Source: Escherichia coli (GTDB taxonomy: Bacteria; Pseudomonadota; Gammaproteobacteria; Enterobacterales; Enterobacteriaceae). From it: DNA of 64,000 bases. The position numbers and the translations under genes are program-made. Of this stretch, positions 6,100 to 6,496 are shown piece after piece. How positions within the stretch are numbered: position 1 is the first letter of the stretch; each line of letters opens with the position of its first letter. Under the pieces are notes generated by a model. The model had not been told where the DNA came from, made no database searches, and saw only the letters and a list, made by a program, of their open reading frames with translations. Location of the stretch: NCBI RefSeq assembly GCF_048403405.1, contig NZ_CP183129.1, one strand, 5' to 3'.

Positions 6100-6496
6100 G
6101 TGTTCCCCGCGCCAGCGGGGATAAACCGAATACGCAACAGTGTTTTTATTGACAACACCGGTGTTCCCCGCGCCAGCGGGGATAAACCGGCAACGCCAGT
6201 AAATCAGACCAACGGCGCTGGGTGTTCCCCGCGCCAGCGGGGATAAACCGCGTTGTTTTGCCGGGTCGGGTGAATATATCGTAGTGTTCCCCGCGCCAGC
6301 GGGGATAAACCGGCCAGATTTCCAGTTCACTGGTCTTCGCGGCAAGTGTTCCCCGCGCCAGCGGGGATAAACCGAATGAGAGCTGACAGGTGTATGTCAT
6401 CAGTACGTGTTCCCCGCACCAGCGGGGATAAACCGTAATATTAGACTAATGTTTTTTTGTTGAGTTCGTGTTCCCCGCGCCAGCGGGGAACTCCCA
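6100..6496 (+). CRISPR. Type I-E CRISPR array, 7 repeats and 6 spacers
   Basis: 29-bp repeat GTGTTCCCCGCGCCAGCGGGGATAAACCG at 6100, 6161, 6222, 6284, 6346, 6407, 6468; spacers 32, 32, 33, 33, 32, 32 bp; repeat 6 has one substitution (CGCACC); repeat 7 is degenerate at its 3' end. Confidence 0.95.

What the first reader, a model, noticed from the sequence alone, without database searches (positions are those of the whole stretch)
6407..6496. Variant repeat 6 and degenerate terminal repeat
Repeat 6 has a G-to-A change in the hairpin loop (CGCACC for CGCGCC), leaving the 6-bp CCCCGC/GCGGGG stem intact. Repeat 7 keeps the stem but its last 8 nt diverge (AACTCCCA for ATAAACCG), typical of a leader-distal terminal repeat. 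Both may affect Cas6e processing of the neighbouring crRNAs.
Basis: seen in the sequence. Interest (0 to 1): 0.2.

Follow-up and report, generated by a model that had tools for sequence, protein, structure and literature searches.

The report
Ordinary E. coli CRISPR repeat variants
The last two repeats of an ordinary E. coli type I-E CRISPR array carry inherited sequence variants that are real but probably harmless, and the end repeat has a better-preserved hairpin than is usual for the species.

Summary
Window 6100-6496 is the E. coli CRISPR1 array (type I-E; cas2e-leader-array-iap) with 7 repeats and 6 spacers. Repeat 6 (6407-6435) has G12A at 6418, the first base of the GCCA loop. Repeat 7 (6468-6496) is canonical for 22 nt and then reads ACTCCCA.

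Neither variant is a sequencing error: the same array is in six independent complete E. coli genomes, and strain GF60 shares repeat 6 plus spacer 6. G12A recurs elsewhere (64 further genomes; K-12's last full repeat), and most natural repeat variation falls in the loop.

The AACTCCCA tail is the conserved CRISPR1/iap junction, seen in all 11 arrays read; the junction region matches in about 3100 genomes. Most of those carry a broken-stem terminal repeat. Here the stem is intact, a form found at 100% in only 6 of 5426 genomes. It is probably a hybrid of a canonical repeat and the old terminal repeat.

The diverged tail lies 3' of the predicted Cas6e cut (6488|6489), so crRNA 6 should have normal handles. 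crRNA 5 should differ only by an ACCA loop. The suggestion of impaired processing is therefore weakly supported at best.

This is known biology of low interest. In passing: spacer 4 matches the chromosomal gene ybgE 33/33.

The parts
239..1801 (+). cse1/casA
   Evidence: NCBIfam TIGR02547, 608 bits against a cutoff of 70; annotated casA in the identical strain 4621.
1798..2334 (+). cse2/casB
   Evidence: TIGR02548, 105 bits against a cutoff of 28.5.
2349..3404 (+). cas7e/casC
   Evidence: TIGR01869, 448 bits.
3415..4161 (+). cas5e/casD
   Evidence: TIGR01868, 160 bits.
4143..4793 (+). cas6e/casE, the endoribonuclease predicted to cut the repeats
   Evidence: TIGR01907, 285 bits against a cutoff of 45. 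Only distantly related to K-12 CasE (phmmer E 1e-10). A histidine aligns with K-12 H20, the catalytic residue according to the review read.
4790..5713 (+). cas1e
   Evidence: TIGR03638, 381 bits.
5710..6003 (+). cas2e
   Evidence: TIGR01873, 133 bits.
6004..6099 (+). A+T-rich leader between cas2e and repeat 1, which sets the direction of transcription
   Evidence: Aligns with the K-12, GF60 and MS 21-1 sequence upstream of repeat 1. Position as in K-12.
6100..6406 (+). Repeats 1-5 (canonical, starting at 6100, 6161, 6222, 6284, 6346) and spacers 1-5
6407..6435 (+). Repeat 6, with G12A at 6418 (loop GCCA becomes ACCA). The predicted Cas6e cut at 6427|6428 makes the 3' end of crRNA 5 and the 5' end of crRNA 6.
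   Evidence: Identical in six genomes plus GF60.
6436..6467 (+). Spacer 6, the oldest spacer, shared only with strain GF60
6468..6489 (+). Terminal repeat 7, canonical part (positions 1-22) with an intact hairpin. Predicted Cas6e cut at 6488|6489.
6490..6496 (+). Terminal repeat 7, diverged tail ACTCCCA. This is the conserved CRISPR1/iap junction sequence of E. coli.
   Evidence: The same tail is present in all 11 arrays aligned. The junction region matches in 3141 of 5426 genomes.
6497..6515 (.). Trailer between the array and the iap stop codon
6516..7553 (-). iap (aminopeptidase), convergent with the array
   Evidence: NF007568, 705 bits; annotated iap.

Best explanation
Window 6407-6496 holds the last two repeats and the oldest spacer of the chromosomal E. 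coli CRISPR1 array (type I-E). The array is transcribed from the leader next to cas2e towards iap.

Repeat 6 carries an inherited G-to-A transition at the first base of the hairpin tetraloop. Repeat 7 is the trailer-end repeat: its first 22 nt are canonical, and its last 7 nt are the conserved sequence that ends CRISPR1 arrays across the species. Both are neutral or nearly neutral polymorphisms of the old, leader-distal end of the array. They are not errors.

Shown here: the anatomy, the inheritance and the distribution among genomes.

Inferred:
- Cas6e cuts each repeat after G21.
- crRNA 5 (6367-6427) therefore differs from normal only by an ACCA loop in its 3' handle.
- crRNA 6 (6428-6488) has a fully canonical 8-nt 5' handle and 21-nt 3' hairpin.
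- The diverged tail goes into the discarded trailer.
- Repeat 7 most likely arose when the 5' part of the usual broken-stem terminal repeat was replaced by canonical repeat sequence, through recombination or gene conversion between repeats. This restored a processing-competent hairpin downstream of the oldest spacer.
For: Identity of the locus:
- All seven cas genes upstream pass the NCBIfam type I-E cutoffs.
- The window is 100% identical over 15.7 kb to E. coli strain 4621, where the region is annotated cas2e-CRISPR-iap.
- The repeat is the E. coli/Salmonella Repeat1 of Touchon & Rocha.

The variants are real and inherited:
- The same array is present in six independent complete genomes.
- GF60 shares only the repeat 6 (A) + spacer 6 unit, so G12A predates the divergence of the rest of the two arrays.

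G12A is recurrent and tolerated:
- It occurs in 64 further genomes (the B, BL21 and C strains among those listed) in a different spacer context. Strain Res13 has the same two flanking spacers with a G there.
- The last full repeat of K-12 and of Res13 has G12A plus C13T.
- Among 73 internal repeats of 11 arrays, 18 of the 23 substitutions outside position 2 fall in loop positions 12-14.
- The predicted hairpin is unchanged.

The tail is conserved:
- AACTCCCA follows the terminal repeat in all 11 arrays aligned.

Hybrid origin of repeat 7:
- Eight of the 11 arrays, including sister GF60 with the same last spacer, have a broken-stem terminal repeat (CCCCGCC.CTGCGGTAGAACTCCCA).
- The window form differs from GF60's at several sites at once, and every difference is towards the canonical repeat.
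- The window form is found at 100% in only 6 of 5426 genomes.

Processing logic, from the literature:
- The mature crRNA is 8 + 32 + 21 nt, made by a single Cas6e cut at the base of the hairpin (PMC5965381; PMC4288178).
- T. thermophilus Cse3 cuts after G21, prefers A at +1 and cuts AA/AC/AG/AU linkers to completion (PMC3683919).
- The 3' handle is largely dispensable for target binding by K-12 Cascade in vitro.
Against: - No experimental data exist for this Cas6e. It is only distantly related to the studied K-12 and T. thermophilus enzymes, so tolerance of the ACCA loop is inferred from natural variation and from orthologues.
- Repeat 7 can form two more base pairs than a canonical repeat (U4-A23 and G3-C24, on top of U5-A22). 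Pairing of the +1 base slowed T. thermophilus Cse3, so cleavage at repeat 7 could be slower.
- The direction of change at repeat 7 (hybrid against retained ancestral form) rests on parsimony over 11 arrays. The MS 21-1/SCU-172 lineage also has an intact-stem terminal repeat, and the trailer is mosaic among strains.
- In K-12 the array is largely silenced by H-NS, so any effect may never be exposed.
Confidence: 0.8

Rival explanations
1. One reading: the loop change in repeat 6 and the diverged end of repeat 7 reduce Cas6e binding or cleavage, so crRNAs 5 and 6 are under-produced or mis-processed.
For: - Repeat sequence is reported as essential for Cas6e recognition (review PMC5965381).
- The repeat 7 stem can extend by pairing G3-U5 with A22-C24, and pairing of the +1 base inhibited T. 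thermophilus Cse3.
- This Cas6e variant has never been tested.
Against: - The diverged bases of repeat 7 are downstream of the cut and belong to no crRNA.
- A22 is retained, and AA linkers are cut to completion by the orthologue.
- Loop variants are the commonest natural repeat polymorphism and occur in K-12's own array.
- The stem energy is almost unchanged in repeat 6.
- The 3' handle is mostly dispensable for Cascade function in vitro.
Confidence: 0.12
2. The G-to-A in repeat 6 is a sequencing or assembly error.
For: None, beyond its being a single-base difference within a repeat.
Against: - The same base is present in six independently assembled complete genomes from the USA, Japan and elsewhere, and in GF60.
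- The same variant repeat is present in 64 further genomes.
Confidence: 0.01
3. Repeat 7 is not a hybrid but a retained, less decayed ancestral terminal repeat. On this view the broken-stem forms of K-12, BL21, GF60 and others are later decay products.
For: - A second lineage (MS 21-1, SCU-172) also has an intact-stem terminal repeat with the same tail.
- The trailer is mosaic, so recombination could have spread the decayed allele.
Against: - The decayed characters (GCC.CTGCGGTAG) are shared by arrays with different last spacers and by both cas operon types (K-12 type and this type).
- They are also shared by GF60, the only genome with the same last spacer.
- The intact form with this flank is in only 6 of 5426 genomes.
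Confidence: 0.2
4. The conserved tail has a function. AACTC is the reverse complement of the repeat's 5' end GAGTT, so the terminal repeat forms an extended palindrome. That palindrome could act as an array-end element, for example a transcription stall or terminator, or a cap against Cas6e or exonucleases.
For: - The tail is invariant in the 11 arrays.
- The outer stem GAGTTC/GAACTC survives even where the inner stem has decayed (fold z = -4.9).
- A repeat hairpin followed by a T-tract terminates efficiently (PMC4499155).
Against: - There is no compensatory change. Arrays with GTGTT or GAATT 5' ends keep AACTC.
- No T-tract follows the hairpin directly, and the terminator scan finds nothing there.
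- In other phyla, perfectly palindromic repeats simply mark points where array orientation flips (L057, L095, L099). That fits a rearrangement or template-switch relic.
Confidence: 0.07

Closest known systems
E. coli K-12 CRISPR I array (also called CRISPR1 or CRISPR2.1; iap side) and its terminal repeat
   Same: - Same locus (cas2-leader-array-iap), same 29-nt repeat apart from position 2 (T against A), and 32-33-nt spacers.
- Same AACTCCCA tail and trailer.
- K-12's last full repeat also carries G12A, together with C13T.
   Different: - K-12 ends with the widespread anchor spacer GGCGCACTGG... followed by a broken-stem terminal repeat (GAGTTCCCCCGCCTCTGCGGTAGAACTCCCA). The window lacks that spacer and has an intact hairpin.
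- The cas operon here is the other, highly divergent E. coli I-E variant (Cas6e against K-12 CasE, phmmer E 1e-10).
CRISPR1 array of E. coli strain GF60 (NZ_CP172185.1)
   Same: The only other genome with the repeat 6 (G12A) + spacer 6 unit at the trailer end; same cas operon type and a near-identical leader.
   Different: - All younger spacers differ.
- Its terminal repeat is the broken-stem form GTGTTCCCCCGCCACTGCGGTAGAACTCCCA.
- The trailer differs at 2 positions.
Degenerate terminal repeats of CRISPR arrays in general (Touchon & Rocha 2010, PMC2886076)
   Same: The leader-distal repeat is degenerate at its 3' end. That paper reports a modified terminal repeat in 86% of CRISPR1 arrays, and 16% of internal CRISPR1 repeats deviating from the consensus.
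   Different: None in kind. Here the degeneracy is confined to the last 7 nt.
Thermus thermophilus Cse3 (Cas6e) and its repeat hairpin substrate
   Same: A 21-nt hairpin with the cut after G21, A preferred at +1, and an 8-nt 5' handle.
   Different: A different protein and a different loop. Tolerance of ACCA in the E. coli enzyme is inferred, not measured.

Membership tests
Type I-E CRISPR-Cas locus (E. coli CRISPR1) | Array of about 29-nt partly palindromic direct repeats separated by unique spacers of about 32 nt | tested here: met
   7 repeats of 29 nt, with spacers of 32-33 nt and start-to-start spacing of 61-62 nt. The core motif occurs 7 times against 0.17 expected.
Type I-E CRISPR-Cas locus (E. 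coli CRISPR1) | Repeat sequence of the E. coli/Salmonella I-E type (reverse complement CGGTTTATCCCCGCTGGCGCGGGGAAC(A/T)C) | tested here: met
   GTGTTCCCCGCGCCAGCGGGGATAAACCG is the reverse complement of Repeat1 in PMC2886076. It is identical to the repeats of BL21, C4 and other strains.
Type I-E CRISPR-Cas locus (E. coli CRISPR1) | Adjacent cse1-cse2-cas7-cas5-cas6e-cas1-cas2 genes | tested here: met
   All seven pass the NCBIfam type I-E cutoffs.
Type I-E CRISPR-Cas locus (E. coli CRISPR1) | cas3 nuclease-helicase | tested here: inconclusive
   cas3 lies just outside the window. In four clone genomes it is annotated as frameshifted, owing to a 1-nt insertion at nt 21. An in-frame GTG at nt 44, preceded by AAGGA, opens an uninterrupted ORF.
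Type I-E CRISPR-Cas locus (E. coli CRISPR1) | A+T-rich leader on the cas2 side; chromosomal position between cas2 and iap | tested here: met
   The leader aligns with K-12, GF60 and MS 21-1; iap lies downstream.
Type I-E CRISPR-Cas locus (E. coli CRISPR1) | Pre-crRNA cut by Cas6e after G21 into 61-nt crRNAs | not testable with these tools
   Inferred from K-12 and T. thermophilus work. Needs RNA data.
Degenerate leader-distal terminal repeat | Last repeat, opposite the leader, diverged at its 3' end | tested here: met
   Repeat 7 is the last repeat, and 5 of its last 7 nt differ. The leader is at the other end.
Degenerate leader-distal terminal repeat | The same degenerate end is conserved among strains (inherited, not formed anew in this array) | tested here: met
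   The AACTCCCA tail is in all 11 arrays aligned. The junction region matches in 3141 of 5426 genomes.
Rfam CRISPR direct-repeat families | Covariance-model match | tested here: not met
   No Rfam 15 match at E <= 1 in 5000-8000, and none at gathering score in the whole window. This says nothing against the CRISPR identity, which rests on the features above.

The most novel reading that the evidence does not exclude
The terminal repeat of E. coli CRISPR1 is not random decay. Its conserved tail (AACTC) mirrors the repeat's 5' end, making an extended palindrome that marks or insulates the end of the array. In this six-genome clone, a conversion event restored the inner hairpin and so re-activated processing of the oldest spacer.
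Probability: 0.08. Interest if true: 0.3.

Novelty: already known. Interest (0 to 1): 0.08.

Why it matters
It matters little. Repeat polymorphisms and degenerate terminal repeats in E. coli CRISPR arrays were catalogued in 2010, and they are used mainly for orienting arrays and for strain typing. The modest added value here has three parts:
- The variants are shown to be clonal markers rather than errors.
This clone has a better terminal hairpin than almost all other E. coli, so its oldest spacer is expected to be processed normally.
- The G12A + spacer 6 unit links this clone's array to that of GF60.

Tried and rejected
- Rfam scans of 5000-8000 (E <= 1) and of the whole window (gathering score) gave no hits. 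This was uninformative.
- The promoter and terminator scan of 5900-6700 found nothing at repeats 6 or 7. A terminator role for the repeat 7 hairpin was therefore set aside.
- The spacers gave no match in the phage collection. Only the chromosomal ybgE match for spacer 4 appeared in the 'plasmid' collection. Spacers 1, 2, 3 and 5 occur only in the six clone genomes, with no prophage targets at the sensitivity of a 28-nt exact word.
- A first idea was that repeat 7 arose by deletion of the widespread anchor spacer unit. This was revised after GF60 showed the same last spacer followed directly by a broken-stem terminal repeat.
- I considered that the clone's interference is dead because cas3 is annotated as frameshifted. 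I withdrew this because the insertion lies upstream of a plausible GTG start.
- The genome-contig scan for the extended palindrome GTTCCCCGCNNNNGCGGGGAAC gave 107 loci, mostly unrelated palindromes. Only three were in arrays, at points where orientation flips.
- The primary Cas6e structure paper (PubMed id 21572442) is not held in the library.

Full report
**What is there**

Window 6100-6496 is a CRISPR array of seven 29-nt repeats and six spacers (32, 32, 33, 33, 32 and 32 nt). The repeat core occurs seven times in the 64-kb window against 0.17 expected by chance, and only here.

Upstream on the same strand lie cse1, cse2, cas7e, cas5e, cas6e, cas1e and cas2e (239-6003). All pass the NCBIfam type I-E cutoffs. 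A 96-nt A+T-rich leader (6004-6099) follows; it aligns with the K-12, GF60 and MS 21-1 sequence upstream of their first repeat. Downstream, on the other strand, is iap (6516-7553).

The first 15.7 kb of the window are 100% identical to E. coli strain 4621. This is therefore the chromosomal CRISPR1 array of E. coli (CRISPR I of K-12; the cysD-cysJ region in Touchon & Rocha 2010). It is transcribed from the leader towards iap.

**The observation**

Repeats 1-5 are identical (GTGTTCCCCGCGCCAGCGGGGATAAACCG). Repeat 6 (6407-6435) has one change, G to A at position 12 (window 6418). That is the first base of the GCCA tetraloop, and the CCCCGC/GCGGGG arms are intact.

Repeat 7 (6468-6496) is canonical to position 22 and then reads ACTCCCA instead of TAAACCG; 5 of those 7 bases differ.

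RNA folding predicts the same hairpin for repeat 6 (-14.4 against -15.2 kcal/mol). For repeat 7 it predicts a longer, 9-bp stem (-19.1 kcal/mol), because G3-U5 can pair with A22-C24.

**Not an error**

The 801-nt region is 100% identical in five independently assembled complete genomes: TUM14771, 4621, MS 69-1, TUM1226 and OX030728. A sixth, GN02461, is 99.9% identical overall, with identical repeat 6, spacer 6 and repeat 7.

Spacers 1, 2, 3 and 5 occur only in these six genomes. One further genome, GF60, has a different array that ends with exactly repeat 6 (with the A) followed by spacer 6. The A therefore predates the divergence of the younger parts of the two arrays.

**How unusual is G12A?**

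Not very. The identical variant repeat is present in 64 further complete genomes, with E. coli B, BL21 and C strains among those listed, and there it sits between different spacers. Strain Res13-Lact-PEB01-20 has those same two spacers with a G in the repeat between them. The change has therefore arisen or reverted more than once. The last full repeat of K-12 and of Res13 carries G12A together with C13T.

Over 73 internal repeats from 11 arrays, substitutions outside the known T/A polymorphism at position 2 fall as follows:

| Region | Position | Count |
|---|---|---|
| Loop | 12 | 5 |
| Loop | 13 | 10 |
| Loop | 14 | 3 |
| Stem | 17 | 1 |
| Stem | 18 | 1 |
| Stem | 21 | 2 |
| 5'-handle part | 26 | 1 |

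Touchon & Rocha already reported that 16% of internal CRISPR1 repeats deviate from the consensus, and that runs of variant repeats are conserved among strains.

**The terminal repeat**

In all 11 arrays aligned, the array ends with ...GAACTCCCA followed by (A/G)CTC(C/T)CATTTTCA and the end of iap. The junction region matches in 3141 of 5426 genomes. The tail is therefore the conserved CRISPR1/iap junction, not divergence specific to this array.

What differs is the part upstream of the tail:
- Eight of the 11 arrays have a broken stem (for example GAGTTCCCCGCCCCTGCGGTAGAACTCCCA). These include K-12, BL21, C4 and, importantly, GF60, which has the same last spacer.
- Seven of those eight are preceded by the widespread anchor spacer G(G/A)CGCACTGGATGCGATGATGGA(T/C)ATCACTT(G/A).
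- MS 21-1 and SCU-172 have a different intact-stem form.
- The window form, with its flank, is found at 100% in only six genomes, all of the same clone.

The window form differs from GF60's at several sites at once, and always towards the canonical repeat. The simplest account is replacement of the 5' part of the old terminal repeat by canonical repeat sequence, through recombination or gene conversion between repeats. Retention of a less decayed ancestral form is the alternative (about 0.2).

**What it means for processing (inferred)**

In type I-E systems, Cas6e cuts once per repeat at the 3' base of the hairpin, after G21. The product is a 61-nt crRNA made of an 8-nt 5' handle, the spacer and a 21-nt 3' hairpin (reviews and primary work read).

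The predicted cuts are therefore at 6366|6367, 6427|6428 and 6488|6489. This has three consequences:
- crRNA 5 (6367-6427) would be normal except for an ACCA loop.
- crRNA 6 (6428-6488) would be fully canonical.
- The diverged tail of repeat 7 (6490-6496) lies downstream of the cut and ends up in the trailer RNA.

Supporting observations from the literature:
- For the T. thermophilus orthologue, A at +1 is preferred, and AA, AC, AG and AU linkers are all cut to completion. Pairing of the +1 base with position 5 slows cleavage (PMC3683919).
- For K-12 Cascade in vitro, all 8 nt of the 5' handle are needed, but one nucleotide of the 3' handle suffices (PMC4288178).
- Cas6e is described as binding the backbone of the 3' strand and the base of the hairpin (PMC3727216).

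Together with the natural concentration of variants in the loop, this makes a processing defect from G12A unlikely. The only plausible effect at repeat 7 is somewhat slower cleavage owing to the two extra base pairs. Compared with the usual broken-stem terminal repeat, repeat 7 should improve maturation of the last crRNA.

One caveat applies. The Cas6e encoded here is only distantly related to K-12 CasE (phmmer E 1e-10), although a histidine aligns with K-12 H20, the residue the review read reports as essential for catalysis. Nothing has been measured for this enzyme.

**Comparison and novelty**

This is a textbook type I-E array. Both features belong to classes described in 2010. No Rfam family matched, which does not bear on the identification.

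The extended-palindrome property of the terminal repeat (tail AACTC is the reverse complement of the 5' end GAGTT) is a curiosity. Arrays whose 5' end is GTGTT or GAATT show no compensatory change in the tail, and no terminator-like site was found. In other phyla, perfectly palindromic repeats mark points where array orientation flips. All of this fits a relic rather than a function.

**Verdict**

The finding is already known in kind, and its interest is about 0.08.

Noticed in passing
window 6313-6345 (spacer 4); target seen in L013 401-433: Spacer 4 (33 nt) matches the chromosomal core gene ybgE (cyd operon) 33/33. That protospacer is present in 5384 of 5426 E. coli genomes, so this is a candidate self-targeting spacer. 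The flank in the genome is CAATAAACCAT|GCCAGA.... For the 33-nt spacer the PAM is therefore CAT, which by my own recollection is not one of the consensus AAG/AGG/ATG/GAG. Read as a 32-nt spacer, the PAM would be ATG and the array carries one extra G. Oddly, the genomic flank contains ATAAACC, the same 7 nt as the repeat's 3' end, offset by one base. This is unexplained.
   Followed up: partly
outside the window: L001 174-2874, L121/L122/L123 674-3374: cas3 is annotated as 'frameshifted' in four genomes of the clone. The cause is one extra T at nt 21 relative to GF60 cas3. An in-frame GTG at nt 44, preceded by AAGGA, opens an uninterrupted ORF whose N-terminus resembles the start of K-12 Cas3 as I recall it. 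The pseudogene call may be an artefact of start-site choice.
   Followed up: partly
window 239-6003, especially 4143-4793: The cas operon is the second, highly divergent E. coli type I-E variant. Its Cas6e matches K-12 CasE only at phmmer E 1e-10, and Cse1 fails the K-12-type NCBIfam model NF007247 (98 bits against a cutoff of 576). Yet it serves the same repeat sequence.
   Followed up: partly
window 6468-6494; L057 about 12139, L095 about 2563, L099 about 6316: The terminal-repeat tail AACTC is the reverse complement of the repeat's 5' end GAGTT, giving an extended palindrome. In three unrelated arrays from other phyla, a perfectly palindromic repeat sits exactly where the array flips orientation.
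   Followed up: partly
window 6251-6283 and 6313-6345: Spacers 3 and 4 are 33 nt instead of the usual 32.
   Followed up: no
L002 and L003, 136-1248: In BL21(DE3) and in strain C, an IS421 transposase gene lies directly next to the leader side of CRISPR1, where this window has the cas operon.
   Followed up: no
L121 327-479 (outside the window, between cysH and cas3): A Hok/Gef family toxin gene lies immediately upstream of cas3 in the clone genomes.
   Followed up: no
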